From Desulfatiglans sp. (GTDB taxonomy: Bacteria; Desulfobacterota; DSM-4660; Desulfatiglandales; HGW-15): a stretch of 64,000 nucleotides of DNA. The stretch covers positions 80 to 64,079 of the forward strand of contig JAAZBV010000011.1 in NCBI GenBank assembly GCA_012513605.1. The letters run 5' to 3'. The notes under the pieces are model-generated. The model did no database searches and was not told the DNA's origin. It was given only the letters and a program-made list of their open reading frames with translations. A program made the position numbers and the translations under genes. This document shows positions 1 to 16,190 of the stretch, one piece after another. The stretch's first letter is position 1. The number at the start of each line of letters is the position of its first letter.

Positions 1-1035
1 AGGCAGCACTTGCCCTGCGAGGTAATGTAAATGTTCAATACCATCTTCTCGTGTAAAAATGAACACACTCTGATCAACTGTGCCTCCACCTGCATCTGAA
101 AACAGATAAACACCAGGGCTTGAAACACGGGAGCGGATAAAACCTTGAACATTTGCACTTACTTCCGGATAAATAAAACATCCATTGTTGGATGAATTTT
201 TATTTTCTGATCTGTAATTTTTTATTAATGATACTAGTTTAGTAATATCCATATATGAAAGCCCTGATAGCTCGCCAGATAGTCCCCATGCCTCACAAAG
301 GACAATATTAAATAATCTACTGATCCTCCTGTCCTGAGCATTATCAACAGGAATTGCCATGTTGATAGCGATATAATCTTCTGGAAGCTCCCCAAATCCT
401 TTGAAACGTAACTTTATCTGGCTTTTTATTTCTCCAATTACTCCAGCTAAGTAGTAAACAGCACAAGTAGCTATAAAAGAAGGTAATTGATCTTTGTTTT
501 TCAATTTAATAGCATTCCTGTAAGTGAAAAGCTGCGGATTATCTATATCTCCATTAGCTGCCAATACCAACGCATTTTTTAAATGAAATAATCCGTTTAA
601 AGGATAATGACTTTTTGTATCTTCCGCATGAAAAATTTTATTTTCTTTAACAATAACCAGGCTAGGTATAAGGAATGGTCTTTCTTTATCTATTGACCTT
701 GAGTAATGATGGACCCAGGCCTTATTGGTCATGATATCCCTGCAAATACATTTTGTATAAGAAGTCCCAAAATCGAGCCCTATTTGTAAAAAATATGGAT
801 CTCTGCCTGTTTTTTTTACAGGTGTTACTTCTACTTTAGTCTCTTTTATAGGTGTATCAGAGCGTGTTTGTTCTACCAGAATTTTATCAATCTTTTTCTG
901 GTCACTTATCAGTTGGGCAGAAGCTTTTTCTTGGGGTTTATTTGAAGGTTTTAGCTGTTTTTTTTCACTTATATCCTGAGCTTTACCAAAAAGACTTTCT
1001 TTAATCGATTTTACAAAATTTGAAAAAATGCCCAT
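1..1035 (-). CDS. Hsp70/actin-fold (ASKHA) ATPase, N-terminal 345 codons only (runs off the left edge of the window)
   Basis: Absent from the supplied track because there is no stop in the window. My own reverse-complement translation starts at ATG (complement of 1033-1035, GGAG 8-9 nt upstream) and is open for all 345 codons to position 1 (MGIFSNFVKSIKE...). It has a Lys-rich N-terminus, then the phosphate-1 motif 'IGLDFGTSYTKC', 'YPEVSANVQGF' (cf. Hsp70 'NEPTAAALAY') and the phosphate-2 motif 'FSDAGGGTVDQS'. It starts 24 nt after the SNF2 stop. Confidence 0.8.
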   Translation of the reverse strand, partial: MGIFSNFVKSIKESLFGKAQDISEKKQLKPSNKPQEKASAQLISDQKKIDKILVEQTRSDTPIKETKVEVTPVKKTGRDPYFLQIGLDFGTSYTKCICRDIMTNKAWVHHYSRSIDKERPFLIPSLVIVKENKIFHAEDTKSHYPLNGLFHLKNALVLAANGDIDNPQLFTYRNAIKLKNKDQLPSFIATCAVYYLAGVIGEIKSQIKLRFKGFGELPEDYIAINMAIPVDNAQDRRISRLFNIVLCEAWGLSGELSGLSYMDITKLVSLIKNYRSENKNSSNNGCFIYPEVSANVQGFIRSRVSSPGVYLFSDAGGGTVDQSVFIFTREDGIEHLHYLAGQVLP

Positions 1036-1059
1036 TGGATATACTCCAAATCCGATATG

Positions 1060-4000
1060 CTAGTTCATTACTCTAAATATCCCCGCTGCTACCTGCGCCT
1101 GCTCTATATCAGTTTTTGCCTTTTCACTCAACTCAAGGAGCCTTTGTTCCTTATTTTTAATGCCTGTATTAAGTCGTCCTTCTGTCATCCTTATTATCCT
1201 TGGATCACGATTTGCTTCTCGCAATGTTTTTAAGCGTTGTTTATCTTGTTCAATACGACGATCAAAGATTCCTTTCACTCGTTGAACCTTAATCTGGTAT
1301 GAAGTATCATTCTCCGCCTCAAAGTCTACTACTGCATCATTAAAACGTAATTCCAAGTCATTTACCACCCTGTTATGGGCCTCAAGCAGTGCTTCGGTAT
1401 CACAATCAACATAATCCCAATCTTTTCCATCACGCAGAAGTTTTTGAATAATCTTTTCTGATACATCTTCCGGATAAATTGTCCCTCCGTATACTCTTGC
1501 AACACCATAAGCCAACATTTCCCGGTTTAATAGGCCTTTAAGCTTCCATCTTTCGATTCTGTAACAATAATCTCCAGGAGGTAAAAATGTGTCATTGATT
1601 TTCAGAGCAGCAACATCATAAAAATTATGCGCTCCTTCTGCGTTTATTTTTGTAATCCAACGTATTAGCGGCGAAAGGTGATTGATAAAATTAATAGACT
1701 TTTGCTGGCCAAAAGATAGTCTTTGAAGCACTTCGCGCCTAAAAGTAATATTAAACTCTTTTCTGCGTAAAGGGCGGGCAGTAAGAGATTTATCATCACC
1801 AATAAAGGCAGATAAGGATGACTGGGCCTCATTACTGAGTCTTACTCGAAGACATCCATCCACTGGAGTATTGTAATTTATTTCTGAACCTTGAAATTCG
1901 CGTTCGAAAAAATCACTTAAATAATCCTCCAGTTCACCAGGTTGAATATACCTTCCTTTTTCACGACCTTCTTCTATTTTTTGCTGTACATAGTCAGAAA
2001 GAGCGATAAGAGCGTCTCCCTCAGTCTCCAAAGCTTGAATCTGGAGTAAACGCTCTTCTATGACACGTTCAGACTGATCCATCAGTCTTTGCTCTTCCTC
2101 TATAGATAATTCCTTACTTAACAGGTCAACAGTAAGGCTTTGAACTTCATTACCAATAATTGCTTCAAGGTCACCAAGACTGTTAGCAAATTTTTCAAGT
2201 TTATAATGAAGCCGGTCATAAAGTCTTTCTTCAATAGTCCCACTGACTTTAAAATTTATAATAGAAAGCCGTTTTGCCTGTTGACCAACTCTATCAATAC
2301 GCCCTATTCTCTGCTCAACTCTCATTGGATTCCATGGTAAATCATAATTTGTCATTACACGACAGAATTGCAAATCAATACCTTCGCTTCCAACCTCTGA
2401 TGAAAGAAGAACACGCGGGCCTCTAGGGTCTTTAAAACGATCAATCTCCTCCCAACGCCGGTCATTTGGTATGCCACCGTGTATCACAGTAACTGTAATA
2501 CCATTTGCTATTAATCTGCGTTGCAAGTATGCAAGAGTTTGGCGATAATAGGCGAATATTATCACTTTTTCATCCGGGATATGCTCAGTAAGCATATTTC
2601 GGAGTTGACAATATTTACTGTCATTTTTTTCAAAATCATATTCAAGTAACCTAGAAAAAGATTCCTTATCTAATTCTTCATCAGTAATATTGTCATCAAA
2701 ATCATTTAATGTTTCTTCGCCCAGGGCCTCCGATAAAAGCTCTTCCGGATCACCTAGCCGACCATCGCGAATTTCTGCAGCGATGGCTGGCAAACAACTT
2801 GCAGCTCTAAGCTGTAACCCAATGACTCTAAATACATGAAAAAGTCTATTATCTTTGCGACATCGTGCGCGCACGAGTTGTAGAATAGTACAGTAGAGCT
2901 GCATTTCTTCTTTCGAGTACTCAACCTGAATAACTTTTGGGACGCGAATAGGTCTATTTTCTTTTACCTGGACCCTGCGAGTTCTATTAACATAGTTCCC
3001 TAAAAGATTTAATTTTTCAGCCAACTCCTGACACTTTGCAATTTTACTCTTATCTGCAGGGCTTATGCTCTCAAGGATTTCAAGGAATTGCTTAAAAAGT
3101 GGTGATTGTTTTATAAAAGGGCTTGAGCTCATACCCTCTACCGCTGTCATCAGAAGTTGAGTATCTACAGGAAATTTTGATAATGCATTTGACGCCTGCA
3201 CAGTAGGTCTATTCACTTCTAAAAGTTCTTCGAACATGCCCTGTGTTTCAAAAAAATCTTCATCTGTCAGACGTAGTAAGCTGTGCAAATCAACATTGCT
3301 ATTATTCACTGGAGTTGCGGACACACAAAGAACGCCTCCGGCAGTCTGTGCCAAACTTGATCCAAGATTAAATGTTGTTGTTGCCGGATTCCTCATATAA
3401 TGGGCTTCATCAAATATTACTAAATCAAATGGGTCAAAATCCAAATCCCAGTGTCGTATTTCTTGTAAAAAAGCTGTTTTTGATGAAACTTTGAGTTGTT
3501 CATCCTGTGGTTCCTTTAAGTATTGCAGTTCAGATTTAGGGGGCCTTATACCAGTATAAGCCGCAATCAAGGCAAAAGAGTGTCCCGGCCCCTCTGATTT
3601 AAGGTGTTTTATTTCCTGGCTCAACCCTGAAAAATTAACTACTCGTGCATCAATGAGAAACTTACTTCGTAATTCATCACACCACTTATCTGCCAGCAAC
3701 TTTGGACACACTACTAGCAGTCGTTTTGCCTGCCGCCTGGCCTGAAGTTCTATCCAAATGAGTGCAGCTTCAATTGTTTTTCCTAAACCTACTTCGTCAG
3801 CGATGATAAGCCGTTCGGTTGGTGAGTTTATAAATTTTAAAACAGGTTTGAACTGATAAGGGTAGAAATCTATCTGGGCTGCCTCCATTGAATATATTAC
3901 TTCATAAAGGACTCCTTTGAGTTTTTCATAGGTAATCAGTCTTTGAAGATCGCGGATCTTGCCAAAGTGTCCTTCCTTTAAACGATCTTCAATTGTACCT

Positions 4001-4200
4001 TTGGTATTTTTAATAAGCTTAAGGCAAGTAATGGGCCTGTAAACTGAGCCTCCTCCAGGAAAAATCAATTGGACCATAGTGTGAGGTCCAGCTTTACGAC
4101 AGTTTCCAGTATATTGTCCAGGCTGACCTGGATTGCTCTTATCTATAAGCCAATCACCAGGTTTAAAAGGTACAGTATTATTTGATGATTCGTTTTTCAT
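1060..4200 (-). CDS. SNF2/RAD54-family helicase-ATPase (1046 aa) with a small N-terminal domain and a ~350-aa coiled-coil-rich C-terminal extension
   Basis: Walker A 'ADEVGLGKTIEA', DEAH box 'VIFDEAHYMRN', C-terminal helicase motifs 'LLSSEVGSEGIDLQ' and 'YDLPWNPMRVEQRIGRIDRVGQ'. Long uninterrupted ORF. Confidence 0.92.
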   Translation of the reverse strand: MKNESSNNTVPFKPGDWLIDKSNPGQPGQYTGNCRKAGPHTMVQLIFPGGGSVYRPITCLKLIKNTKGTIEDRLKEGHFGKIRDLQRLITYEKLKGVLYEVIYSMEAAQIDFYPYQFKPVLKFINSPTERLIIADEVGLGKTIEAALIWIELQARRQAKRLLVVCPKLLADKWCDELRSKFLIDARVVNFSGLSQEIKHLKSEGPGHSFALIAAYTGIRPPKSELQYLKEPQDEQLKVSSKTAFLQEIRHWDLDFDPFDLVIFDEAHYMRNPATTTFNLGSSLAQTAGGVLCVSATPVNNSNVDLHSLLRLTDEDFFETQGMFEELLEVNRPTVQASNALSKFPVDTQLLMTAVEGMSSSPFIKQSPLFKQFLEILESISPADKSKIAKCQELAEKLNLLGNYVNRTRRVQVKENRPIRVPKVIQVEYSKEEMQLYCTILQLVRARCRKDNRLFHVFRVIGLQLRAASCLPAIAAEIRDGRLGDPEELLSEALGEETLNDFDDNITDEELDKESFSRLLEYDFEKNDSKYCQLRNMLTEHIPDEKVIIFAYYRQTLAYLQRRLIANGITVTVIHGGIPNDRRWEEIDRFKDPRGPRVLLSSEVGSEGIDLQFCRVMTNYDLPWNPMRVEQRIGRIDRVGQQAKRLSIINFKVSGTIEERLYDRLHYKLEKFANSLGDLEAIIGNEVQSLTVDLLSKELSIEEEQRLMDQSERVIEERLLQIQALETEGDALIALSDYVQQKIEEGREKGRYIQPGELEDYLSDFFEREFQGSEINYNTPVDGCLRVRLSNEAQSSLSAFIGDDKSLTARPLRRKEFNITFRREVLQRLSFGQQKSINFINHLSPLIRWITKINAEGAHNFYDVAALKINDTFLPPGDYCYRIERWKLKGLLNREMLAYGVARVYGGTIYPEDVSEKIIQKLLRDGKDWDYVDCDTEALLEAHNRVVNDLELRFNDAVVDFEAENDTSYQIKVQRVKGIFDRRIEQDKQRLKTLREANRDPRIIRMTEGRLNTGIKNKEQRLLELSEKAKTDIEQAQVAAGIFRVMN

Positions 4201-4216
4201 AATTATTTATTTTCCC

Positions 4217-4242
4217 ACTTTAAATTTCTATTAATTTAAAGT
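4217..4242. promoter_or_regulatory. Perfect 9-bp inverted repeat (actttaaat-N8-atttaaagt) in the 5' leader of the SNF2 gene
   Basis: Read directly. It lies 17 nt upstream of the SNF2 start codon, inside the 133-bp A+T-rich spacer separating it from the R-M genes. Function (operator or leader hairpin) not established. Confidence 0.25.
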
Positions 4243-4333
4243 TCCTGTATATTTAAGAATGTCCAAAGTTGGATTCTAAAAAGTTATATAGAAAAAATAA
4301 CCTTTAAATAAGCATATTTTATATATTCGGAAA

Positions 4334-5281
4334 TCAGTATGGTCCTAAAAATCTTTCCCCATTGAAATGGATTAAATGCGAAGGGGCTTCAGCTACCCAC
4401 ACCTCTGTTTCCCAGGCTATTTCATTCAAATATCTTGCCATAATTGAACGGTTTGGAAAGGCAGTTACGTAGACAAGACCATGCTTGGCGTTTTTAAATA
4501 GTTTAGCCAGTTCAGAATGTCGTTTCGCATCCATTGGCCCATGACTGGTGACTGATTCCACAAGCAAAAGCCAGTTACGCTTAGCATAATAAAGTACTAC
4601 GTCCGGCATTTTCCCGTGGGCATCAACCTCGATGCCAAGTTCAGTGAGTAAGGCAGCATCAAAATAACCCCATTTATCCCCTGTGTCTCCTGCATAAACA
4701 AGGATGCTGTCAGGCGCGAACCGAGGTCCGAAATCCTCAATAATTGCCTTGATTAGTTCGCTATGCTCTCCGGGGCTGAGTGTAATTTTCTTTCCTTTTT
4801 TAATCTGAACAGGAACACGGTTTTGTTCACGTTCGTTTGCATATCTTTTTGCAAGTGTCTCACGATGCGATAGAAATTCTACAAGGTTATCATGCCATTT
4901 TTTCGTTCCAAAACTGCGTAGCAACTTTAAAGTCTGTGGTTCAATTTGATAAACAGCCTTTGGGCTGTTTACAGGACGGTCCGGCGTATCTGGGTTATAT
5001 AATACAACCCCTGCATCAACAAATTGATGCATTGTCTGCCTTCGAACTGTTTCACGGCTATTTGGTGCATATGTCTTCTTATAATGCGCCTGCATCCAGT
5101 CCATTATTGGTGTTATACCCATAAGCGGATTTTCTGCCTCAGACCATTGTTTGTTCGGGGAAAGGTTGAGTAAGGCAAGCAGAGAAAGGGCAGAGCGTTC
5201 ATTCTGCTGAGCTTTTGGTAAGCCCAGAGATAGAAGTACATTTAATGCTTCGTCTATTCGTTTTTTGACTTTTTTATTCAT
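4334..5281 (-). CDS. Type II restriction endonuclease, BsuBI/PstI family (315 aa)
   Basis: Size and sequence resemble my recollection of the BsuBI/PstI family: 'QQNERSAL', 'GITPIMDW', 'YAPNSRETVRRQT', 'VESVTSHGPMD' and a C-terminal 'IHFNGERFLGPY'. The start codon overlaps the methylase stop (TAATG at 5279-5283). Confidence 0.75.
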   Translation of the reverse strand: MNKKVKKRIDEALNVLLSLGLPKAQQNERSALSLLALLNLSPNKQWSEAENPLMGITPIMDWMQAHYKKTYAPNSRETVRRQTMHQFVDAGVVLYNPDTPDRPVNSPKAVYQIEPQTLKLLRSFGTKKWHDNLVEFLSHRETLAKRYANEREQNRVPVQIKKGKKITLSPGEHSELIKAIIEDFGPRFAPDSILVYAGDTGDKWGYFDAALLTELGIEVDAHGKMPDVVLYYAKRNWLLLVESVTSHGPMDAKRHSELAKLFKNAKHGLVYVTAFPNRSIMARYLNEIAWETEVWVAEAPSHLIHFNGERFLGPY

Positions 5282-6777
5282 TATTCGAGATCCCTAAGTT
5301 TATTATCAATCTCATCCTGTGTCGGTATTCCCTGTTCAAGCATCCACTCACCCAATGAAATCAAGGCGTTTCGGCTGGGGTATTTTAGCGTCATCAGATC
5401 AGTTGCATTAACCTGGGTGTGACCATTGAACAGCCTGAATCTTTCATCAACTGATGCGCTGTTAAGATATCCGGCAAGGCCATAGGCCAGGGATTCAGGC
5501 AATCCCTTTTTTTCTTCATGAAATACATTTAAATGGTTTTCAAACCCAAGCATATTATATTCTTTGAACACATCGGAGCGAACAACCCCTGCGGTTACAC
5601 GTCGTTTCTCTTCTTTGGATGAAAACCTTCGCACAACACAATAAAAGCCATTGGGGTAGAGCCATTTTTCTGTCTCTTTGTTATGAACAATCGCATTTGG
5701 TTTTTTAAAATTGGCCTTTGGCCAGTTGATATTATAGCCATTAAAATGCCCCGGATAAAGGAGCGGGACAGTCCCCTTTTCAGGCATCTCTCTTAAATAA
5801 CTTTTCATCCGAAAATCCACCACCGGGCCGGTGGAAATACCTATATCTAACTCTTTAGGGCTATATCGGATAAAAGGATTAAGGTGCAGGATTTTCCTTT
5901 TTTGTGAGGTCGGGATATGAATAAAATGGTTAATATCATCAGGAGTAACAATATCATCAAATGGATATTCAAAGGTTTTTAAGCCAGAGAAGGTTGAGTC
6001 TGTGGAGGTTGTAATAATCACATCTTCCTGTTTTGCCCCACGCTCCATCATGATTATTACATTTTCCTGCAGTACATCATCATCCTTGAATGCCCTTGTC
6101 CTGGAACCAAACAAGTGTATGTGCTTGAACGCTGCATGATCGAGAAGGAACTTTCTGAAGGGAAGATAATATGGCCCATTGCAGAAACTCCTTGGTATGA
6201 TTGCGACTATCTGGCCGCCTTTTTCAAGCAAGGCAACAGCCAGCGCTACAAAGGCCGAATATAGATTGACTGTTTCAATCCCTGCTTTTCTTAGTGCTAT
6301 CCTGTGTTCGGAATTACTTCTGATTTTTTTATATGGCGGATTAAGGATTGCATGGGTATATGCTGGTAGTGCTTTGCTGAAAAGGTCTCCGCACAGTGAA
6401 TTGGCTGCTGTAATTATAAAATCATTTTCCCTTATATTTAAGACAATATTTCTATGTTTTTTATAGACTTCAAGTGATTCTGCTAAATAGGGTAACAATG
6501 ACTGATCGATCTCAAAGGCATCTATTTCAACATTCTTAAAATAAAAATCATCCGAAATATATCGTTCAAGAAATGCGGCTGAAAGCGACCCTATCCCTGC
6601 CCCTGCATCAAGAAGCCGGCAATTGTCAACAGATGTCCGGGTAAACATATTCGCCATAAAGCAGGCAATACTGGCAGGCGTGAAAAACTGGCCATACAGG
6701 GACTTTTTCTTTTGTTCTGTGGTTCTTGAGATGTTTAATCTTGATTTTTCAACTATTGATAGCAAAAAGGGCTCCAT
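5281..6777 (-). CDS. N6-adenine DNA methyltransferase, Eco57I/PstI-type gamma class (498 aa)
   Basis: 'GQFFTP' motif, AdoMet motif I 'LLDAGAGIGSLS', catalytic motif IV 'ILNPPYKKI'. Translationally coupled to the downstream endonuclease. Confidence 0.9.
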   Translation of the reverse strand: MEPFLLSIVEKSRLNISRTTEQKKKSLYGQFFTPASIACFMANMFTRTSVDNCRLLDAGAGIGSLSAAFLERYISDDFYFKNVEIDAFEIDQSLLPYLAESLEVYKKHRNIVLNIRENDFIITAANSLCGDLFSKALPAYTHAILNPPYKKIRSNSEHRIALRKAGIETVNLYSAFVALAVALLEKGGQIVAIIPRSFCNGPYYLPFRKFLLDHAAFKHIHLFGSRTRAFKDDDVLQENVIIMMERGAKQEDVIITTSTDSTFSGLKTFEYPFDDIVTPDDINHFIHIPTSQKRKILHLNPFIRYSPKELDIGISTGPVVDFRMKSYLREMPEKGTVPLLYPGHFNGYNINWPKANFKKPNAIVHNKETEKWLYPNGFYCVVRRFSSKEEKRRVTAGVVRSDVFKEYNMLGFENHLNVFHEEKKGLPESLAYGLAGYLNSASVDERFRLFNGHTQVNATDLMTLKYPSRNALISLGEWMLEQGIPTQDEIDNKLRDLE

Positions 6778-7467
6778 AAAATGGAATTGATATATTTTAG
6801 GTTAAGTAAAAACTATGTATCAGCTTTTACCCCATAACCTCTCTTTTTTCAATATCCTATATTACACAAATATGATTAACAATAGAATGATTTTATCTTG
6901 CTATATTTATTGGTTATTTGCGGCTTGATGAAATGGGTTTACTGCTAATGGATTGGAAAATTAAGGGAAAAATCATTTATCAGTGAACAATGATCAATGA
7001 TCAGTTATCAGATAGCAGAACCGAAAGCTTCATAAAATAAAAAATTGAATCTTGCACATAATAATGTGCATTTATCATCTTTTTATTAAATAGTAGAGCC
7101 TCCCAACAAAACCACTTCAAAGACCATAATGCAATTGAAAGCCTTGATATTAGTGCCTTCCAGCTTTTTAGCTCCCAAACAATAAACAAATATAATGATA
7201 TGGCATGATGTTTGTAGTTAGAAGCAGGCTGAAGGGGTTTCGGCTGAAGGCTGTTAGGAAAAGCAAACTGCCGCCGTCGCTGAAGGCTTCCACTTTCTTT
7301 AAAAAAACTATGGCGGAGAAAAATAAATTACCCTGAAAAAGGCATAATGCATAACATAAAGAAAATGGATTCTCCGATCCAGTCATCACTAAAGTTATGG
7401 TCTGGCAGGAGAGTTTGTAATTACAATCCTGGCTGGTTTCCATGGTGCCGCTTACTGCACTAATTAT

Positions 7468-8370
7468 TTATGTTATTATTCCTATCTCATTCAACAACTC
7501 AATCGCCGATGTATCCAGCTTACTAAAGGCAAACCATTTTTTCCCTAAATCCTTCAGTGATGCGCCAAAATGATATATCGTCTTATCATCAAGTATTAAA
7601 AACCGGTCATGGGCTTTATCGAAAGGCTTTAATGCTATCGGCGGATATTGTTCATTATGTTTCAGCACATCAAGTTCCAGCTTTCTTGATGGATTCCTTG
7701 TAAGGATGGTAAGTGGAATCCCCTTCTTTCGTTTCGTGAATAATACCAGAACAGTTTCATCTATATAGTTATCTATAAGGAGGATGGATTTTTTAGCTGA
7801 TTTAACAAGATCATTGATAAAGACATAGGCATCAAAAACCTGCCCATCAAAAAATATTCCCTGGCTTGGCTTAATTTCCTTGCTATCAATAACTTCCAGA
7901 ACCTGATTAAGTTTTTTATCCGTTTCAATCTGCTTAATTTCGAGATTGTCCAGGCGATGGAAAATCTGGGCATTGTTAATAATAAACCGTCGCATTGCTA
8001 TAAAGGCTTTGATAATACTGATACTTATCTTAATAGCTGCATCACTTTTCAAGACAGCAGAAAGCATTGCAACGCCCTGTTCAGTAAATGCATAAGGCGC
8101 TTTCCTGAGCCCCATTTTTTCTTTATTGGATATCACAATTTGTGATTTCCAATCATGAAATTCCTTTTCAGTTAAATGAAAACAAAATTCCTCTGGAAAT
8201 CTTACTATATTCCTTTTTACAGCCTGGTTTAATACTCTTGTCTCCACATCATAGAAAGCAGCTATATCCCGGTCAATAATTACAGGTTGATTGCGGATTA
8301 CTATTATCTTGCTCTGTATGATTGGTTCTAATGCAACATTGTTTTTCATAATATTTTTTCCTGAACACAT
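7468..8370 (-). CDS. ORF6N/KilA-N-type DNA-binding protein with a C-terminal HKD-like domain
   Basis: The N-terminus 'IRNQPVIIDRDIAAFYDVETRVLNQAVKRNIVRFPEEFCF...APYAFTEQGVAMLSAVL' is typical of the ORF6N domain. The C-terminus has 'HDRFLILDDKTIYHFGASLKDLG', resembling a degenerate PLD HxK motif. The true start may be the internal Met at 8349. Confidence 0.8.
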   Translation of the reverse strand: MCSGKNIMKNNVALEPIIQSKIIVIRNQPVIIDRDIAAFYDVETRVLNQAVKRNIVRFPEEFCFHLTEKEFHDWKSQIVISNKEKMGLRKAPYAFTEQGVAMLSAVLKSDAAIKISISIIKAFIAMRRFIINNAQIFHRLDNLEIKQIETDKKLNQVLEVIDSKEIKPSQGIFFDGQVFDAYVFINDLVKSAKKSILLIDNYIDETVLVLFTKRKKGIPLTILTRNPSRKLELDVLKHNEQYPPIALKPFDKAHDRFLILDDKTIYHFGASLKDLGKKWFAFSKLDTSAIELLNEIGIIT

Positions 8371-8388
8371 ATTTATTCTGAAAGTCCT

Positions 8389-8487
8389 GAGAACAATAAG
8401 TGTCTACACAGTTGACAGACCCTCATAAAAGAGTTCAAGTCAGCCTTTGACTCTTAGCACCTTCAATCCACCCTAGGCGGACAAGTA
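8389..8487. repeat. Copy 1 of a ~99-nt non-coding direct repeat (partner at 16328-16436)
   Basis: By-eye alignment: 'gaacaataagtg.cta.acagttgacagaccctcataaaaga.ttcaagtcagcctttgactctt.g.accttcaatccacc.taggcggacaagta'. Six substitutions between copies and stops in all frames. Confidence 0.85.
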
Positions 8488-8541
8488 TTATAAATGCAAA
8501 ACCGACCATAAATAAGTAAATAACGCCTATCTTGATTCAAT

Positions 8542-8620
8542 ATTCAAGATTCCCCGTACACACCCGGGATCTTCAACAAAATTACCTGTACACAACACGG
8601 GATCTTCGACAAGATTCAAA
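8542..8620. repeat. Two adjacent ~30-nt direct repeats (gtacaca.c.cgggatcttc.acaa.att)
   Basis: 8555-8583 'cgtacacacccgggatcttcaacaaaatt' versus 8587-8616 'tgtacacaacacgggatcttcgacaagatt', flanked by 'ttcaagatt'/'caagattcaaaatt'. Confidence 0.7.
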
Positions 8621-8988
8621 ATTGTTTTCAATGAACAATGATCAGTAAACAGTTATCAGTCATTTCAGTGGTTAATTAACAATGAACAGTTATCAAAGAA
8701 AAGCTTAAAACGAAAAACTCTGTGAGACGGTTATTTGTTGTACCTGAAATGATTGAATGGGTTAGGTTTAAGACTTTTTGGTAATAAATGCAAGATGAAA
8801 AAGACAGGGTTCAAGGATTCATCCGCCGTCGCCAAGGCTAAGGCGGGACAAGAGGGGTCGAGGGTTCAAGTGAAAAGACAAATATTTATCCCCTTGGTCG
8901 AAATGACAGGATAAAGGATTCAAGATTCAAAATTGAAAAAATCCAGAAGTCAGCCGGCTTCGTATATCTACGCCGTGCCAGGCAGAGA

Positions 8989-9261
8989 TTAATCGTCAAC
9001 CAATCTTTTAAACTTCATCTCTAAATTATACTCGTTACTCACAACAATTGTTTCAATTGCTTGAAGTCTTTTTTCAATTCTATATTTCGTGTAGTTATCC
9101 AGTTCATCCATTTGTACTTTTATTTTTTCTATTTCTTTCTCAGCACTCTTTTTTGAAGCGTTGACCTGAGAGCTATGCAGAGTTTTTTTTACAACATCCC
9201 CGGCAACAATGATGATTACGATTAAGATAGCAAAAGTCCAGAAATCCATTACCGTCTCCAT
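8989..9261 (-). CDS. Small N-terminally membrane-anchored coiled-coil protein (PspB-like organisation)
   Basis: One N-terminal TM segment (FWTFAILIVIIIVAG) followed by a charged helix. 'RLQAIETIV' loosely resembles PspB. Annotation is tentative. Confidence 0.5.
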   Translation of the reverse strand: METVMDFWTFAILIVIIIVAGDVVKKTLHSSQVNASKKSAEKEIEKIKVQMDELDNYTKYRIEKRLQAIETIVVSNEYNLEMKFKRLVDD

Positions 9262-9594
9262 ATATATTGAGTAAAAAGTAAAGGGGTCTGCCCTTGACTC
9301 TTTATGGCTTCAATAATCACAAAACAAAAACAACTTGATTCCAGCCTGCGCGGGAATGACGGATTGGGGACTTGATGCCCCGGTACCCCAAAAAGGCATC
9401 GCCCTGTTATATAATGACCGCGTCCCCCATTACGGGTTGAAAAGGGTAAAAATGACGAAAAAAATATTTTATTTGAAAAAACGTAAATGGATTAGGGGAT
9501 GCAGGTAAAAAGGTAAATCAAATATTTATTTTTACCATTTTATCTACATTATCCCCATCTACTAAGTTGTTGCCCCTTTTACATAATTCTCTGA

Positions 9595-10395
9595 CTAATC
9601 CGCAACTATCGAAATACCTCCATTTACCGTAGACAAATCAATACTCGATCCTCCGCCATTTACCTTACCATCTATCTTTTTCCCGATAAATTTCCCGGTA
9701 ACAGTTACTGGAAAATCCGTGCTTATACCGCCGTTTACAGTTGATGCATGAATATCAGCAGCAACATCAGAAGGTAGAGAAAGTCTTACACTGCCGTTAA
9801 CACTTGATAGATGAATATCATCACTTTTATCAAGATGTGTTGACCTCGCTTTAATCGCACCATTAACTGTACTTGCTTCAATTGAACCGTTAATATCAGA
9901 CACATTAACTGATCCATTAACAGTTTTCAGAGAAATCTCACCTTTTAGATTTTCTGCTTTTACAGCACCGTTTACTGAATCTAAATTTAAATCTGTTTCA
10001 ACAGGTATTTTTATTGAATAATCCACAATTACAGTATACCTTTCATCATTATTGAAATTCCAGTCAGACACACCGTGCTTTTTATTCGGGTAATCGGCCT
10101 CTATCCTCAGCCTGTCACCGCTCTCATCAATTTCTATTTTTACTTTTTTGATTATCTCTTCCGCATCAACGCTGCTTCCCCATTCTGCTTTTACCCTGAT
10201 TTCAGCACCAATTTTTACCTGGTCTTTGTCCCATGATTCTGCATTAATGTAACCATTAATATTTCTCACAGAAACCTTCCCTCCGCTCTTAAAACTTATA
10301 GTTTTGTGGAACTCATCAGTTGCTGTTTGTGCAATTAAAGATAATGGCGAGATAAAAAGTAAAAACAGACTTATCATGATAGTTTTTTTTAACAT
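9595..10395 (-). CDS. Secreted DUF4097-type (LiaG/putative adhesin-like) beta-repeat protein
   Basis: Signal peptide (MLKKTIMISLFLLFISPLSLIAQ) and repeated 'SVNGSV / TVNGAI / TVNGGI' strands. Confidence 0.85.
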   Translation of the reverse strand: MLKKTIMISLFLLFISPLSLIAQTATDEFHKTISFKSGGKVSVRNINGYINAESWDKDQVKIGAEIRVKAEWGSSVDAEEIIKKVKIEIDESGDRLRIEADYPNKKHGVSDWNFNNDERYTVIVDYSIKIPVETDLNLDSVNGAVKAENLKGEISLKTVNGSVNVSDINGSIEASTVNGAIKARSTHLDKSDDIHLSSVNGSVRLSLPSDVAADIHASTVNGGISTDFPVTVTGKFIGKKIDGKVNGGGSSIDLSTVNGGISIVAD

Positions 10396-10560
10396 ACTTT
10401 GCCTCCTGGATAGTATTTTATTTATATATTGTTAAAACATTTTCTGCATAAAAAGATCCTGAAAAAATTATGCCCATTGTACTTGTTAAAGAGAAAACAA
10501 TAAGTGGCCCACGCTTCTGCACCCTTCACACAGAGTAAATTCCGGATTTTATTTTTATTG

Positions 10561-11016
10561 TTAATTGTTCATTGTTAATTGTTCATAAATAAACCTTGCA
10601 ATCCAGAAGCAAAAAAATGCACAAAAAAATAAAATTATACTTGTTTTTGTAATCCCGCAGTGGATCTTGAGTGTGATTTCTTTCCCTGTAACAATTTCAA
10701 TGGAAAATTTTATCAAAACAAATAAAAGAGCAGCGTAGATAATCGGTCCCAGTAGATGAAATCTGAAAGATTCCTGAAAGTTTAAATGAGAAACTGCATA
10801 AAAGGATCGGGTTAACCCGCAGGTAGGACAACTGTAACCTGTGAGTTGTTTAAATTGACATGTCAGGAACTCTGTTTCTTCAGGATTTATAAAGATCGAA
10901 ACCAGGAATACAGACAGTAAAGTTAATGCCATAACAGCTTTGGGGATAATTTTGTTTACAGGCATCGGGTTGTATGCGTAGATTTTTTCCATGGGTAAGT
11001 ACGTTCTATAACTCAT
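10561..11016 (-). CDS. DUF2752-family membrane protein
   Basis: 'CPTCGLTRSF' motif plus 3-4 TM segments. ATGA overlap with the upstream gene. The last residues (EQLTMNN*) are encoded by an intergenic-type repeat word. Confidence 0.8.
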   Translation of the reverse strand: MSYRTYLPMEKIYAYNPMPVNKIIPKAVMALTLLSVFLVSIFINPEETEFLTCQFKQLTGYSCPTCGLTRSFYAVSHLNFQESFRFHLLGPIIYAALLFVLIKFSIEIVTGKEITLKIHCGITKTSIILFFCAFFCFWIARFIYEQLTMNN

Positions 11017-11951
11017 ACAAATCCATTGAAGCCATCATCATACGGCTCCGGAAATGTCTTATACTCAAGGCCGAATTGTTCCAGAAACTCTACACTCATT
11101 GCCCTGAAGGTGTATTTGATTGGCAGCAGTATAATTGTTCCGATATAGGGAAAGGCTAATATTATAAAACCAATACAGCATGTAGATAATCCGATAATTA
11201 TGACACAGATGGCTATCAGGAGATGCAGTAAGAATATTATTATTCCATAAAAAATAAACTGCAGCATGTATCTGCTGAACAGGGGCATGAAGCGTCTCCA
11301 CGCCTCAACGGAGCCAATATTGTTTTTATACATGATCGGTACAACAAAATGGGTAAGGAATAAAGTAATGTATCCTGCAATAATACATATTGCTAATAAA
11401 CATAGAACCATTCCGGCAATAATCAGACCGGTGGCTAAACCTGGAAAATCGTTACTCTGGAAATAAAACACAACAAAAAGTATGGCAGCTAAAAACAGCA
11501 TAATAACTGCAAACATAATAATACTGAAACAGAGCCGCCACAGGAAGAGTGAGTCTCCCAGGGTTTTAAATTGATTCCAGGGCTTTGATACCAGTGCTCG
11601 ATCGTGAACAACATTATCCAGGAACATAAATTTCCCCCGTGAACTCAACCATAGCAAAAGTACGCCAAGCGCGATAAAAAATAATGTGCCCAGGCCAATA
11701 AGCATAAACCAAAAAGGGTTATTTAAAAGCCATTCCCATGCCATTCCGGGAAAATCTGAGATTTTTTCAATGTTCCAGTTATTTTGCCATGACTTATTAA
11801 AGGAACCGTTGCCTGAGTATCCATCTACCAGGCCCGCGAGAAAGGCAGTAAATCCGACTGTAAACCATTTACCCATATCAAAGGGATTGAAGAGGGCATT
11901 TTTCATCCGGCCCCAGCCATTGGACAACGGTTTTCCATAGTTAATATCCAT
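11013..11951 (-). CDS. Polytopic membrane protein, function unknown
   Basis: 312-aa ORF with several long hydrophobic segments, overlapping the downstream DUF2752 gene. Confidence 0.7.
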   Translation of the reverse strand: MDINYGKPLSNGWGRMKNALFNPFDMGKWFTVGFTAFLAGLVDGYSGNGSFNKSWQNNWNIEKISDFPGMAWEWLLNNPFWFMLIGLGTLFFIALGVLLLWLSSRGKFMFLDNVVHDRALVSKPWNQFKTLGDSLFLWRLCFSIIMFAVIMLFLAAILFVVFYFQSNDFPGLATGLIIAGMVLCLLAICIIAGYITLFLTHFVVPIMYKNNIGSVEAWRRFMPLFSRYMLQFIFYGIIIFLLHLLIAICVIIIGLSTCCIGFIILAFPYIGTIILLPIKYTFRAMSVEFLEQFGLEYKTFPEPYDDGFNGFV

Positions 11952-12225
11952 GATTCCTCCCCGAAATTATAGAGTGTCCTGCTTCAATGTATTGGTCCTG
12001 AATCCAATATCATCAAGCACAACCATTCCTTTATGCGTTTTGTCAAAGACAAAGGCGACCTTATATAACTTTTCCGGATCAAACGCCGGATTTGCCCTGG
12101 AAAAGTATGTAGGTTGGGTTAAGCGAAGCAACCCAACAAAGACACTAAAAGGATGTTGGGTTATTGACCCAACATGGCTACTGCAAAATCTGGGTTGAAA
12201 TGTATATTCCTTCGGAAAAATTTTT

Positions 12226-12852
12226 TTATACAAACTCAACCTCAGGTTCGGTCTCCGATTCTTTTAAGAAAATCATACCCAAAACTATTAACGCTACATT
12301 GAAAAATAGTATGCCGATGAACCACAGGATTATGGTGAAAAAACATACACCACCGATTATTTGCATTATTGCATAGATACGATACAGACCAGATGTCTGG
12401 TCCTTTAACTCTAGAAGCCTGACACCATAAATAAAATAGATGATCCCTCCCAGTAGACACAGTGGTATATAAGGCACAATACCAAGTAACATGAGGGCAC
12501 CCTGGTCCCTGGTAAATATCGGTAATATTGTGCTAAAAATTTCCATTGCTAACAAAATAATAAGCATAATAATAATGGATTTTATCATAATACGGATGTT
12601 GTCAAGGTGATACCTTTTGACAAGAAGCCTTTCAAGTTGTAGTAATATGTAAATGGCAAATACGGAATAGACAATTGTTAGAGGTATCCTGATAAAAATC
12701 ATCCAGATTGCTGATAATTTCAAGGCAGTAAGCATACCGAATATAAACATGGGTATTCCCAGGATCGCGGTAAAAAAACATATGAAGGCCGTTGTTTTAA
12801 AGCGCGAATCTACCATAAACGACTGAGAAGCCTCTGTATATGCTATAGCCAT
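12226..12852 (-). CDS. Polytopic membrane protein (DUF2975-like by context)
   Basis: Five or more TM segments. Sits directly downstream of a 70-aa YozG-type HTH gene, a commonly seen pairing. Confidence 0.65.
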   Translation of the reverse strand: MAIAYTEASQSFMVDSRFKTTAFICFFTAILGIPMFIFGMLTALKLSAIWMIFIRIPLTIVYSVFAIYILLQLERLLVKRYHLDNIRIMIKSIIIMLIILLAMEIFSTILPIFTRDQGALMLLGIVPYIPLCLLGGIIYFIYGVRLLELKDQTSGLYRIYAIMQIIGGVCFFTIILWFIGILFFNVALIVLGMIFLKESETEPEVEFV

Positions 12853-12888
12853 GTTGATTCCTCCGGAAAGGATTTTTAAATAATAGTT

Positions 12889-13101
12889 TCAGACAAATTC
12901 AACTAAATATTCAAGTATGTCCCCTGGCTGGCAATCCAGTTCGCGACATATTGCATCAAGTGTGCTGAACCGTATGCCCTTTACCTTTCCTGTTTTAAGA
13001 AGTGAAAGGTTGGTCATTGAAATGCCGATCTTCTCTGATAAATCGGTCAGAGACATTTTCTTTTTTGCCATCATTACATCTAGTCGTATTTCTATAGCCA
13101 T
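12889..13101 (-). CDS. XRE/Cro-family HTH transcriptional regulator (YozG-like, 70 aa)
   Basis: 'MSLTDLSEKIGISMTNLSLLKTGKVKGIRFSTLDAICRELDCQPGDILEY'. Confidence 0.9.
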   Translation of the reverse strand: MAIEIRLDVMMAKKKMSLTDLSEKIGISMTNLSLLKTGKVKGIRFSTLDAICRELDCQPGDILEYLVEFV

Positions 13102-13532
13102 GGAGTGATAATAATTGAGATATTTTAATTTGTCAATAAAGATTTTATGTTAAACATTAAATTATATCTGTTTAGAATAATATTTTATTGGTGAGGCAAA
13201 CTTTAACTTTTCCTGAATACAGGTCATTTCCCGAATTCGTTAATTTGAGTAGAGCGGGACAATCCTATAATCTCCAGACAAGGTAAAAAATAAAACAAGT
13301 GAATCCGGTTAGCCCAACTTCCGTAGTAAATAAAATTAACAGAAAATAAGAGAAACAGGCAGAAGAAGAGCTGGTAACCCATTGATATATCGAGCAGGGG
13401 TTATAGAGAAAGTGTGAAAGCTAATGTAGTTCCGGCCAGGTACATTGACTTGATGATGGAAGGCGATATAATTGTCGCATATATATAAGGAAGAAGACAT
13501 GGCTAAAAGGATAGAGGGATTTCAATTAACTT

Positions 13533-15346: not shown

Positions 15347-15559
15347 AATATTTTACGATATTACCTTCATCCAGGGGTGTAAAGGGGGACTCTGTAAGTT
15401 TATAAGGTTGGTGCGATTTAACCTAATAACCTTACAGTGAGAGGGAACGTTGTTAGCTTACTAAGTATAAATCATATCAATAAGCTAAACCCCTATCGTC
15501 TACTGGCTGCAAAATTGGACCAGCATAACTGGTAAAATTCTGTTTGTTTAAGTGGTGGC

Positions 15560-15895: not shown

Positions 15896-16190
15896 ATTTC
15901 ACCTCTGCTGATTCTAATACATCATTTCTGAAATAACGACTAAGATCCTCTGCAGTTCGCATATCCACTTTTCGCCCCAGTACTGAACTTAATTCGTTTT
16001 CCATACCAGCGAGGCGTATCAGTCCTGGAATATGATCAGGAAAAAACTCAACCAGCATATCGATATCGCTATCATCATTAAAATCGTCCCGCAAAAAAGA
16101 ACCAAAGACTGATAATTTACGTATATGGTTTCGTCGGCAGAATTCTCTAATTTTTCTATATGAAAGATCAATGCCCGATTTTCCCATCAT
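15882..16190 (-). CDS. mntA: MNT-family nucleotidyltransferase antitoxin
   Basis: '[21 protein letters not shown]' (GS...DxD nucleotidyltransferase motif). Confidence 0.9.

What the first reader, a model, noticed from the sequence alone, without database searches (positions are those of the whole stretch)
1..4200. SNF2 helicase + Hsp70/actin-fold ATPase two-gene module beside an R-M system: candidate uncharacterised defence system
A 1046-aa SNF2 ATPase has a small N-terminal domain and a ~350-aa coiled-coil C-terminal extension, with no nuclease or methylase motif that I can see. After 24 nt it is followed by a gene I found by hand that is absent from the track. Its product has clear ASKHA motifs (DFGTSYTK ... 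YPEVSANVQGF ... DAGGGTVD) and a Lys-rich N-terminus. The pair sits in a visibly A+T-richer block directly downstream of a PstI/BsuBI-type R-M operon and near an ORF6N/KilA-N gene. That is classic defence-island context. I cannot match an SNF2 + Hsp70-like pairing to any named system I know (DISARM, BREX, Druantia, Zorya, Hachiman, Hma, etc.). The module may continue beyond the left edge of the window.
Basis: partly seen in the sequence, partly recalled or inferred. Interest (0 to 1): 0.75.

Follow-up and report, generated by a model that had tools for sequence, protein, structure and literature searches.

The report
SNF2 motor plus Hsp70-like ATPase pair
A RapA/DrmD-like SNF2 DNA motor and a previously unnamed Hsp70-like ATPase form a strictly conserved two-gene unit that sits at the tail of restriction-modification and other defence operons in many bacterial phyla, which makes it a credible but untested new anti-phage/anti-plasmid system.

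Summary
On the minus strand, a 1046-aa SNF2 gene (1060-4200) is followed 24 nt later by a gene starting at 1035 that runs off the window. Its full product is 519 aa in a 99.98%-identical contig.

- **Second protein:** it has no Pfam, NCBIfam, PADLOC or PDB sequence match. Its model matches Hsp70 nucleotide-binding domains, and the ATP-binding motifs are invariant.
- **SNF2:** it has full-length RapA architecture and hits one PADLOC "DrmD" model end to end. It fails NCBI's DrmD cut-off, and no DrmA/B/C genes were seen nearby.
- **Pairing:** the two genes are adjacent in 43 of 43 non-redundant loci across about 10 phyla. They are also adjacent in eight loci of remote relatives (19-29% identity), three of them in reversed order. 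Their divergence is correlated (r=0.94).
- **Context:** the pair usually ends co-directional defence arrays (type I, II and IIG R-M, PglZ, McrB-like, GmrSD, short pAgo). In seven species it sits between hsdS and hsdR.
- **Module end:** the module ends with the ASKHA gene.
- **Literature:** I found no published description.
- **Effector:** neither protein has a recognisable effector domain, so the mechanism is inferred.

Verdict: a real, well-supported candidate defence module and a new variant of SNF2-based systems. Function is untested.

The parts
1060..4200 (-). SNF2 ATPase, 1046 aa, of the RapA/DrmD type
   Evidence: ORF. Pfam SNF2-rel_dom and Helicase_C. PADLOC DrmD model PDLC02623, 684 bits, end to end. 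NCBIfam DrmD 359.5 bits, below the 610 cut-off. Foldseek top 5 hits are E. coli RapA over the full length, E 2e-30 to 7e-21.
3916..4170 (-). SNF2 N-terminal small beta-rich domain plus helices (aa 11-95)
   Evidence: The AF2 model has strands at aa 17-62, pLDDT about 80. The region is conserved in 28 homologues. It falls within the full-length structural alignment to RapA.
2251..3876 (-). SNF2 two-lobe ATPase core (aa 109-650), with Walker A GLGKT (3775-3789) and DEAH (3400-3411)
   Evidence: Translation. These motifs are invariant in alignment A3. Pfam.
1063..2235 (-). SNF2 C-terminal RapA-like spacer/C-terminal region (aa 656-1046): long helices plus an alpha/beta domain, with no nuclease fold
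   Evidence: The NCBIfam RapA model aligns aa 521-998, and the DrmD model aligns aa 74-1035. AF2 secondary structure. Foldseek aligns about 1030-1100 columns to RapA.
1036..1059 (.). 24-nt spacer between the SNF2 stop and the ASKHA start
   Evidence: Sequence. The median spacer across 43 loci is about 19 nt.
1..1035 (-). 5' two-thirds (codons 1-345 of 519) of the Hsp70-NBD-like (ASKHA) ATPase gene, cut by the window edge
   Evidence: Translation. The full 519-aa gene is in L002 and L058. AF2 plus Foldseek match Hsp70 nucleotide-binding domains. The family has 1007 clusters at E<=1e-10.
985..1032 (-). ASKHA N-terminal basic amphipathic helix (aa 2-17, GIFSNFVKSIKESLFG)
   Evidence: Conserved across the family. 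Hydrophobic moment 0.54-0.60. Modelled as a helix at low confidence.
799..984 (-). ASKHA variable Lys/Pro/Glu-rich linker (aa 18-79), predicted disordered
   Evidence: Length and sequence vary in alignment A1. pLDDT is below 50.
751..774 (-). ASKHA phosphate-1 motif DFGTSYTK (aa 88-95)
   Evidence: Sequence. D88, G90, T91 and K95 are invariant even in relatives of 19-32% identity.
73..171 (-). ASKHA YPEVSANVQGF (aa 289-299, catalytic-Glu strand) and phosphate-2 motif DAGGGTVD (aa 314-321)
   Evidence: Sequence. P290, E291, D314, G316 and T319 are invariant in remote relatives.
4201..4333 (.). 133-nt A+T-rich gap between the REase and SNF2 genes. A possible internal promoter, not shown.
   Evidence: Sequence. 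The promoter scan found no more sites than in shuffles, 25 against 25.
4334..5281 (-). Context: BsuBI/PstI-type type II restriction endonuclease, 315 aa
   Evidence: Pfam 2.5e-64 and 7.9e-57. PADLOC REase_II 1.5e-153.
5281..6777 (-). Context: cognate N6-adenine DNA methyltransferase, 498 aa
   Evidence: Pfam Eco57I and N6_Mtase. PADLOC MTase_II 4.4e-201.
7468..8370 (-). Context: ORF6N-domain protein, 300 aa, matching the PADLOC candidate single-gene system PDC-S05
   Evidence: Pfam ORF6N 3.9e-32. PADLOC PDC-S05 3.4e-119.

Best explanation
This is a self-contained two-gene module. It pairs a RapA/DrmD-type SNF2 double-stranded-DNA translocase with a new family of Hsp70-nucleotide-binding-domain-like (ASKHA) ATPases. 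It most likely acts as an anti-phage/anti-plasmid system, or as a booster of such systems.

Shown by computation:
- The two genes are always adjacent and co-diverge.
- Both keep intact ATPase motifs.
- Neither carries a recognisable nuclease, methylase or other effector domain.
- The pair rides as the 3' unit of many different R-M and defence operons.

Inferred working model:
- The two proteins form a complex.
- The SNF2 motor loads on invading DNA and translocates, stalling or stripping polymerases and other proteins, as RapA does with RNA polymerase.
- The Hsp70-like ATPase acts as a nucleotide-gated clamp or switch that licenses or anchors the motor.
- Anchoring may be at the membrane, through the ASKHA N-terminal amphipathic helix.
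- Invader DNA is then either silenced directly or handed to the neighbouring restriction nuclease.

In this window the module is appended to a PstI-type R-M operon, but it is not specific to that operon.
For: Pair conservation:
- An SNF2 orthologue (42-77% identity, full length) lies immediately upstream of the ASKHA gene in every locus that has upstream sequence: 43 of 43 non-redundant loci.
- Spacers are mostly -4 to +45 nt.
- Pairwise distances of the two proteins correlate, r=0.94, Mantel 0/2000.

Remote relatives (19-29% identity) are still paired:
- Cyanobacterium HL-69 and Shinella.
- Sphingobium pSF1 and Aminobacter pAA03, hhalign probability 96.6% and 98.5%.
- Leptolyngbya, P0389 and P0296, with the gene order reversed.
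- All six plasmid SNF2 hits at >=31% identity and >=90% coverage have an ASKHA partner. Five were inspected; the Sphingobium CAP-1 hit has statistics identical to pSF1.

Protein features:
- ASKHA fold and invariant ATP-binding motifs.
- SNF2 motifs invariant, with RapA architecture.

Defence context:
- Upstream neighbours include Methylase_S (9), N6_Mtase (7), HsdR-type helicases (6), GmrSD (3), RT, TIR, short pAgo, PglZ, McrB-like AAA_5 and HEPN-DUF499.
- The upstream gene is co-directional in 34 of 40 loci.
- In seven species the pair lies between hsdMS and hsdR.
- In Aminobacter pAA03 it sits beside Hachiman and AbiEii.

Distribution:
- It is patchy across about 10 phyla plus one archaeal MAG, and it occurs on plasmids.
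- It is absent from the phage collections searched.
- The flank just past the ASKHA stop differs between relatives that are 96-99.98% identical.
Against: - There is no experimental evidence of protection.
- No effector domain was recognised, so the way an invader would be stopped is speculative.
- Physical interaction between the two proteins was not tested, because no multimer prediction was available.
- The membrane-tether idea rests on a short amphipathic helix (modelled at low confidence) and on a borderline hydrophobic hairpin in two reversed-order proteins.
- Most family members come from uncultured MAGs. ORF calls in the related loci were crude.
- Only about 7 kb upstream was available per locus.
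- Defence-island location is suggestive, not proof.
- The distance correlation is also expected for any two co-inherited genes.
Confidence: 0.6

Rival explanations
1. The pair is an obligate accessory of the neighbouring restriction-modification system, not an independent system. For example, it could help restriction complexes load or translocate, remove stalled restriction motors from host DNA (restriction alleviation, protection from self-cutting), or act as a back-up when the R-M system is inhibited.
For: - In this window the pair is co-directional with M and R.PstI and 133 nt downstream of them.
- The upstream gene is co-directional in 34 of 40 loci, with a gap of 150 nt or less in 28 of 40.
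- In seven species the pair is wedged between hsdMS and hsdR.
- 16 of the 30 loci with at least 6 kb upstream have a methylase or specificity gene (my count).
- Neither protein has its own nuclease.
- RapA-like SNF2 proteins work with methylases in DISARM, ARMADA and BREX.
Against: - The partner system varies widely: type I, II and IIG R-M, GmrSD, McrB-like, PglZ, RT, pAgo.
- Several loci show no R-M gene within the sequence available (L007, L009, L015, L043, L044).
- In L036 a SPARTA-like pair is inserted at the same place. This suggests the type I operon is a landing site for independent cargo.
Confidence: 0.22
2. The SNF2 is an orphan or degenerate DrmD, ArmA or BrxHII left over from a DISARM, ARMADA or BREX system, and the second gene is incidental.
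For: - PADLOC DrmD model PDLC02623 matches end to end, 684 bits.
- NCBIfam DrmD is the best family hit.
- PglX-like methylases or PglZ lie upstream in L012, L013, L017, L024 and L029.
Against: - The NCBIfam DrmD score is 359.5 against a cut-off of 610.
- DUF1998 (DrmB, YprA-type helicases) and PLD (DrmC) domains were not among the families listed for the neighbours. Those lists show only the 25 most frequent of 68 and 86 families.
- The same PADLOC model scores even higher (978-1027 bits) on the SNF2 partners of remote ASKHA homologues, so that model in effect describes this pair's helicase.
- The strict 43 of 43 adjacency argues against an incidental neighbour.
Confidence: 0.05
3. The pair has a housekeeping role: a RapA paralogue that recycles RNA polymerase, together with a chaperone-like ATPase, unrelated to defence.
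For: RapA is the closest solved structure and the best PDB sequence hit. The partner has an Hsp70-like fold.
Against: - The pattern scan found the ASKHA family in only 41 of 185,579 species genomes (this is an undercount), spread patchily over many phyla.
- The pair occurs on plasmids.
- It is embedded in R-M operons.
- The NCBIfam RapA score is 164 against a cut-off of 576.
- The partner has no substrate-binding domain and no J-protein or GrpE neighbours.
Confidence: 0.05
4. The pair serves a mobile element. It could be plasmid maintenance or partition (an actin-like ATPase), or anti-restriction protection of incoming plasmid DNA.
For: - Homologous pairs lie on conjugative or mobilisable plasmids, near parAB, relaxase and ssb genes in Sphingobium pSF1 and near parA in HL-69.
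- ASKHA proteins include ParM-type segregation ATPases (established knowledge).
Against: - The top 50 fold matches are all Hsp70, not ParM or MreB.
- Most copies are chromosomal and co-transcribed with restriction genes. That is the wrong side of the conflict for an anti-restriction factor.
- There are no hits in the phage collections.
Confidence: 0.05

Closest known systems
DISARM class 1 helicase DrmD (with the related ARMADA ArmA and BREX BrxHII)
   Same: It is a RapA-like SNF2 ATPase of about 1040 aa with the same end-to-end architecture. It is the best family hit in PADLOC and NCBIfam. It lies in defence islands, often next to N6-adenine or PglX-like methylases. Those helicases are described the same way in the ARMADA papers.
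   Different: No DrmA/DrmB/DrmC, YprA-like helicase, PglZ or BrxC core accompanies it here. The score is below NCBI's DrmD cut-off. Its constant partner is an Hsp70-like ATPase that none of those systems contains.
E. coli RapA (HepA), the RNA-polymerase-recycling SNF2 ATPase
   Same: It is the closest solved structure. Foldseek gives E 2e-30 with about 1090 aligned columns, covering the N-terminal domain, both RecA lobes, the spacer and the C-terminal domain. It is also the best PDB sequence hit.
   Different: Identity is about 18%. The NCBIfam RapA score is 164 against a cut-off of 576. Distribution is patchy and island- or plasmid-borne rather than core. RNA polymerase binding was not tested.
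Prokaryotic MORC/paraMORC GHKL ATPase + SWI2/SNF2 helicase operons in R-M contexts (Iyer, Abhiman and Aravind 2008, PMC2292703)
   Same: The logic is the same: a clamp-type chaperone-like ATPase encoded next to an SNF2 helicase, inside laterally mobile R-M neighbourhoods. More distant relatives of this very SNF2 (28-30% identity) are followed by a sacsin/Hsp90-like GHKL protein instead of the ASKHA protein.
   Different: The partner here has the ASKHA (Hsp70/actin) fold, not GHKL+S5. The MORC operons usually also encode an HNH, EcoRII-like or Vsr nuclease, and none is a constant part of this pair.
Hsp70/DnaK nucleotide-binding domain; Hsp70-like CnuD of CoCoNuT type IV restriction systems (PMC11090510)
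   Same: It shares the Hsp70-NBD-like fold and has phosphate-1, phosphate-2 and adenosine motifs that resemble Hsp70 (DFGTS; DTGAGTVD compared with DLGGGTFD, the latter quoted from memory; GGGG). CoCoNuTs show that Hsp70-like proteins can be defence components.
   Different: There is no substrate-binding domain and no sequence-level match to Hsp70 models. No McrBC-type GTPase or nuclease partner is present. The ATPase motifs here are intact, whereas the CnuD motifs are reported as often degenerate.
Zorya (membrane ZorAB sensor plus the SNF2-type ZorD)
   Same: This is a functional analogy only. An SNF2-family ATPase would be coupled to a possibly membrane-associated partner. ZorD appears among the structural matches of the SNF2 core (rank 37).
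   Different: There is no ZorA/B homology. ZorD carries a nuclease and this SNF2 does not. Membrane association of the ASKHA protein is only inferred.

Membership tests
DISARM class 1 | SNF2 helicase that meets the curated DrmD model | tested here: not met
   NCBIfam NF038317 scores 359.5 bits against a cut-off of 610. PADLOC's uncurated DrmD sub-model PDLC02623 does match, at 684 bits. That same model scores 978-1027 bits on the SNF2 partners of remote ASKHA proteins.
DISARM class 1 | Core genes drmA (helicase), drmB (DUF1998) and drmC (PLD) in the same locus | tested here: not met
   No such ORFs occur in window 1-20000 or in the 8.4 kb past the ASKHA gene in L058. DUF1998 and PLD are not among the families listed for 173 neighbours in 43 loci. 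Families matched by one neighbour, and some matched by two, fell outside the top 25 and were not listed.
DISARM class 1 | Associated adenine methyltransferase DrmMI | tested here: inconclusive
   An N6-adenine MTase is adjacent (5281-6777). However, it matches type II MTase models (4.4e-201) and is paired with a PstI-type REase. It is therefore explained as an ordinary type II R-M methylase.
ARMADA (types I/II) | YprA-like DExH helicase with DUF1998 (ArmC), together with a RapA-like SNF2 and a PglX-like methylase | tested here: not met
   There is no YprA/DUF1998 gene in the window or in L058. System definition taken.
BREX | PglZ, PglX and BrxC core genes | tested here: not met
   These are absent from the window. 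A PglZ gene lies upstream of the pair in one related locus only, L029.
RapA/HepA orthologue | Meets the curated RapA model | tested here: not met
   NCBIfam NF003426 scores 164 bits against a cut-off of 576. The structural architecture is shared.
RapA/HepA orthologue | Binds RNA polymerase | not testable with these tools
   This needs pull-down or cryo-EM.
Hsp70 chaperone family | Nucleotide-binding domain of the ASKHA fold with phosphate-1, phosphate-2 and adenosine motifs | tested here: met
   The top 50 Foldseek hits are all Hsp70 NBDs, with best E 2e-9. The motifs are invariant across the family.
Hsp70 chaperone family | C-terminal substrate-binding domain, and a sequence match to Hsp70 models | tested here: not met
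   The protein ends about 90 residues after the NBD core, and that tail is modelled at low confidence. There is no Pfam, NCBIfam or PDB sequence hit.
CoCoNuT (type IV restriction with Hsp70-like CnuD) | McrB-like GTPase and McrC-like partner (CnuB/CnuC) in the operon | tested here: not met
   None occurs in the window. System definition.
Type II R-M, BsuBI/PstI family (the neighbouring genes) | BsuBI_PstI REase N-terminal and catalytic domains, plus a cognate N6-adenine methylase | tested here: met
   Pfam 7.9e-57 and 2.5e-64 for the REase. The MTase gives PADLOC 4.4e-201. This R-M system needs no helicase, and the SNF2-ASKHA pair occurs with many other systems, so the pair is not a member of it.
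MORC/paraMORC + SNF2 R-M-like operons | GHKL+S5 ATPase partner | tested here: not met
   The partner has the ASKHA fold. GHKL (sacsin-like) partners occur only with more distant SNF2 relatives.

The most novel reading that the evidence does not exclude
The SNF2-ASKHA pair is a previously undescribed, widespread two-protein immune system with no nuclease. A new family of Hsp70-like ATPases (about 1000 clusters at 50% identity) gates or anchors a RapA-like DNA motor that disables invading DNA by remodelling protein-DNA complexes, or by feeding the DNA to neighbouring restriction enzymes. The ASKHA partner may be tethered to the membrane. ASKHA and GHKL (Hsp90-like) partners would then be interchangeable 'clamp' modules for this motor.
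Probability: 0.4. Interest if true: 0.85.

Novelty: new variant of a known kind. Interest (0 to 1): 0.68.

Why it matters
If the pair protects cells, it adds a defence system whose second component is a protein family with no name and no annotation. That component also has a fold (Hsp70 nucleotide-binding domain alone) not yet shown to act in DNA-level immunity.

- **Mechanism:** because neither protein has a nuclease, the pair could reveal a non-degradative way of stopping invaders. It could also reveal a general way in which restriction systems are boosted or kept safe.
- **RapA-like helicases:** it would clarify what the RapA-like helicases in DISARM, ARMADA and BREX do, which is still unclear.
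- **Annotation:** PADLOC labels this helicase "DrmD", so annotation pipelines currently leave an unexplained orphan DISARM gene wherever the pair occurs.
- **Tractability:** the homologues on plasmids of cultured Aminobacter, Sphingobium, Shinella and cyanobacteria make the question directly testable.

Tried and rejected
**Searches that found nothing**
- Sequence-level identification of the ASKHA protein found nothing: Pfam, NCBIfam, PADLOC and a PDB profile search. Only the fold search worked.
- Pfam scans of the N-terminal extensions of long-form ASKHA proteins, and of the SNF2 extension in L007, gave only weak coiled-coil hits or none. There were no fusion clues to an effector.
- No tRNA or Rfam element marks an integration site in the window.
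- There were no homologues in GenBank phages or IMG/VR contigs.
- Nine of the ten permitted literature searches (SNF2/Hsp70/ASKHA/actin-like/DrmD/ARMADA/sacsin/MORC combinations) found no description of this pair. Subscription-only papers were not searched.

**Methods that were uninformative**
- A jackhmmer attempt to label methylases among the neighbours failed because the local database was too small. I replaced it with clustering plus Pfam scans.
- The PADLOC scan of upstream neighbours was swamped by redundant type I specificity models.
- The sigma-70 promoter scan of 1-8600 matched shuffles (25 against 25). It does not show whether the pair has its own promoter.

**Ideas rejected or left open**
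- The idea that L004 shows a circular or excised form of the island is rejected. L004 continues into sequence absent from the window.
- ParM/MreB-type filament identity is rejected as the best fold match.

Full report
**1. What is in the window**

The minus strand carries, in order:
- an N6-adenine DNA methyltransferase (5281-6777);
- a BsuBI/PstI-type restriction endonuclease (4334-5281);
- a 133-nt A+T-rich gap;
- a 1046-aa SNF2 ATPase (1060-4200);
- a 24-nt spacer;
- a gene that starts at ATG 1035 and runs off the left edge after 345 codons.

The identical SNF2 protein is on other public contigs. One of these (L002) and a 99.98%-identical 21.9-kb contig (L058) carry the complete second gene of 519 aa. 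It is followed by a convergent S15 peptidase and then housekeeping genes. So the module ends with this gene.

The source is a Desulfatiglans sp. MAG whose deposited contig is cut at about the same place.

GC content is 39.0% for 1-6777 against 42.9% for the rest. The lower-GC zone reaches about 18 kb, so it is not specific to the module.

**2. The SNF2 protein**

Helicase motifs I, II, III and VI are intact and invariant among 28 homologues.

Family searches gave these results:
- PADLOC's DrmD sub-model PDLC02623 matches end to end (7e-206, 684 bits).
- NCBI's curated DrmD equivalog scores 359.5, below its 610 cut-off.
- RapA scores 164 against 576, and DpdE 183 against 500, so both also fail.

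RapA is the best PDB sequence hit. An AlphaFold model (pLDDT 72, pTM 0.47) finds RapA as its five best structural matches. These have E 2e-30 to 7e-21 and about 1030-1100 aligned columns. That is roughly seven or more orders of magnitude better than any other SNF2 protein, and those align only over the motor core.

The "coiled-coil extension" is therefore the RapA-type spacer and C-terminal region. No nuclease or methylase domain was detected by any method.

**3. The second protein**

It has no Pfam, NCBIfam or PADLOC match, and a profile of 20 homologues finds nothing in the PDB by sequence.

Its AlphaFold model (pLDDT 68, pTM 0.67) gives 296 structural matches at E<=1e-3. The top 50 are all Hsp70/DnaK nucleotide-binding domains, with best E 2e-9 and TM about 0.5.

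These motifs are invariant even in relatives of 19-32% identity:
- phosphate-1 (GxDFGT);
- the catalytic-Glu strand (YPE);
- phosphate-2 (DxGxGT);
- the adenosine motif (GGG).

There is no substrate-binding domain.

Other family hallmarks:
- a short basic amphipathic N-terminal helix (consensus FSKLIRxIKEKLFG, hydrophobic moment 0.54-0.60);
- a variable Pro/Ser/Lys-rich linker;
- in about 90% of members, a C-terminal ...AP[ST]KD[EQ]C ending;
- several conserved Cys and His residues.

An exhaustive profile search finds 1837 clusters (50% identity) at E<=1e-3, 1007 at E<=1e-10 and 176 at E<=1e-30.

**4. The pair is a unit**

A scan of 185,579 species genomes returned 41 loci. They come from Desulfobacterota, Syntrophales, Verrucomicrobiota, Planctomycetota, Bacteroidota, Acidobacteriota, Nitrospirota, Chloroflexota, Hydrogenedentota, Fibrobacterota and one Woesearchaeota MAG.

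Together with metagenome contigs, the results are:
- Every locus with upstream sequence has an orthologous SNF2 (42-77% identity, full length) directly before the ASKHA gene, 43 of 43 non-redundant loci.
- The median spacer is about 19 nt.
- Pairwise distances of the two proteins correlate at r=0.94, Mantel 0/2000.

Remote ASKHA relatives are also adjacent to an SNF2:
- Cyanobacterium HL-69, Shinella, Sphingobium and Aminobacter have the same gene order.
- Leptolyngbya and two long-form metagenomic proteins have the reversed order.

For the three of these SNF2 proteins that I scanned (HL-69, Shinella, Leptolyngbya), the same PADLOC model scores 978-1027 bits.

From the SNF2 side, all six plasmid hits at >=31% identity and >=90% coverage have the ASKHA partner. 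Adjacency that survives deep divergence and a swap in gene order is strong evidence of functional coupling.

**5. Where the pair lives**

Orientation of neighbours:
- The upstream gene is co-directional in 34 of 40 loci, with a gap of 150 nt or less in 28.
- Downstream genes are co-directional only 20 of 37 times.

Downstream genes are mostly housekeeping, except for seven type I HsdR genes.

Upstream neighbours are rich in R-M and defence families:
- type I HsdS (9), N6 methylases (7), HsdR (6), GmrSD (3), reverse transcriptases and UvrD/PD-(D/E)xK proteins;
- PglX-like type IIG enzymes;
- PglZ, a HEPN-DUF499 protein, a McrB-like AAA_5 protein, and an N6_N4 methylase with a UvrD helicase.

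In seven species the order is hsdM-hsdS-...-SNF2-ASKHA-hsdR. In one of them a TIR + short-pAgo (SPARTA-like) pair sits at the same spot.

By my count, 16 of the 30 loci with at least 6 kb upstream carry a methylase or specificity gene there.

On Aminobacter pAA03 the pair lies between restriction genes and a Hachiman system. No homologue was found in phage collections.

**6. Interpretation**

- The only constant is the pair itself. Its partners vary, so I read it as a self-contained module that prefers, or depends on, DNA-targeting defence operons.
- It is not DISARM, ARMADA or BREX. The curated DrmD cut-off is failed, and the defining DrmA/B/C, YprA and PglZ/BrxC genes are absent (definitions).
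- Both proteins look like active ATPases, and neither has an effector domain.
- My working model is a motor plus a nucleotide-gated clamp or switch. The RapA-like translocase acts on invader DNA, evicting or stalling polymerases or presenting DNA to a neighbouring nuclease. The Hsp70-like ATPase licenses or anchors it.
- Membrane tethering is suggested by the amphipathic N-terminal helix. It is also suggested by a hydrophobic hairpin plus coiled coil in two reversed-order proteins, but this evidence is weak.
- These mechanistic steps are inferences.

**7. A wider pattern**

SNF2 relatives at 28-30% identity on plasmids of Rhizobium sp. BT03 and Methanomethylovorans hollandica are followed by a 1041-1113-aa protein with a sacsin/Hsp90-like GHKL domain, not by an ASKHA protein.

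This echoes the MORC/paraMORC GHKL + SNF2 operons described in R-M contexts by Iyer et al. 2008 (PMC2292703). It suggests that two unrelated clamp-type ATPases can serve the same motor.

**8. Prior knowledge**

Full-text searches found no SNF2 + Hsp70-like pairing described, and nor did the papers I opened on CoCoNuTs, ARMADA, NTP-dependent conflict systems, HEPN proteins and two modularity screens. The library lacks most subscription papers, so this is absence of evidence within that limit.

**9. Verdict**

I class the module as a new variant of SNF2-based defence-island systems. It has an unnamed partner family, good experimental handles in cultured hosts, and an open mechanism.

Noticed in passing
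L064 8581-14917 (Rhizobium sp. BT03 plasmid); L065 8827-15311 (Methanomethylovorans hollandica pMETHO01): More distant RapA/DrmD-like SNF2 genes (28-30% identity) are followed within 1-5 nt by a 1041-1113 aa protein with a sacsin/Hsp90-like GHKL domain instead of the ASKHA protein. This looks like a displacement of one partner by another.
   Followed up: partly
L036 1110-14908 (Flavobacteriaceae MAG): A type I R-M operon is interrupted by two cargo units: hsdM, hsdS, a TIR protein plus a short pAgo (SPARTA-like), then SNF2-ASKHA, then hsdR.
   Followed up: partly
window 13526-15376; L004 8222-10073; L058 9567-11025: The SAM-methyltransferase + NUDIX gene pair lies 13.5 kb from the ASKHA gene in the window. 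In a 96%-identical relative (L004) it lies directly after the ASKHA gene. The 99.98%-identical L058 has an S15 peptidase there instead. Homology between the relatives ends about 190 nt past the ASKHA stop, so this flank is rearranged.
   Followed up: partly
window 7468-8370 (-): The ORF6N-domain protein matches the PADLOC candidate single-gene defence system PDC-S05 over its full length (3.4e-119). This would be a further defence element in the island, besides the R-M system and the SNF2-ASKHA pair.
   Followed up: no
window 15560-16190 (-): A HepT-like RNase (111 aa) and an MNT nucleotidyltransferase (102 aa) overlap by 14 nt. This is a HEPN/MNT toxin-antitoxin pair.
   Followed up: no
L007 5066-9981; L022 5012-9981: In two loci the SNF2 has an extra N-terminal extension of about 320 aa with no family match. 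It is preceded by an overlapping gene for a 273-291 aa alpha/beta-hydrolase-like protein (weak Pfam hits only). This may be a three-gene variant with a candidate effector.
   Followed up: partly
L043, L045, L046, L052 (Desulfovibrio-type ASKHA C-termini): A divergent subclade replaces the usual C-terminal KD[EQ]C ending with a CxxCxGxG motif, the signature of the DnaJ zinc finger.
   Followed up: no
ASKHA family; window codons for C96 and C98 at 742-750, C286 at 178-180: Cys96, Cys98, His151, Cys191, Cys286, His427, Cys428 and the very last residue Cys519 are 86-99% conserved. This hints at a metal or redox site near the nucleotide cleft. Proximity could not be checked without model coordinates.
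   Followed up: no
L055 8122-10356 (Leptolyngbya plasmid); P0389: Two reversed-order long-form ASKHA proteins begin with two hydrophobic segments (Kyte-Doolittle 19-residue maximum 1.61 for P0389) followed by about 250 aa of coiled coil. This may be a membrane anchor. The Leptolyngbya copy lies about 7 kb from type I-D cas1/cas2 genes.
   Followed up: partly
L015 6758-9903; L038 and L049 around 9889-11539: In a few MAGs the SNF2 or ASKHA reading frame is split (for example, the SNF2 as 761 + 287 aa). This could be decay, a frameshift or an assembly error.
   Followed up: no
L019 and L020: Loci binned as Chloroflexi and as Deltaproteobacteria gave identical match statistics in both searches and come from the same lake study. 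This suggests a binning error or very recent transfer.
   Followed up: no
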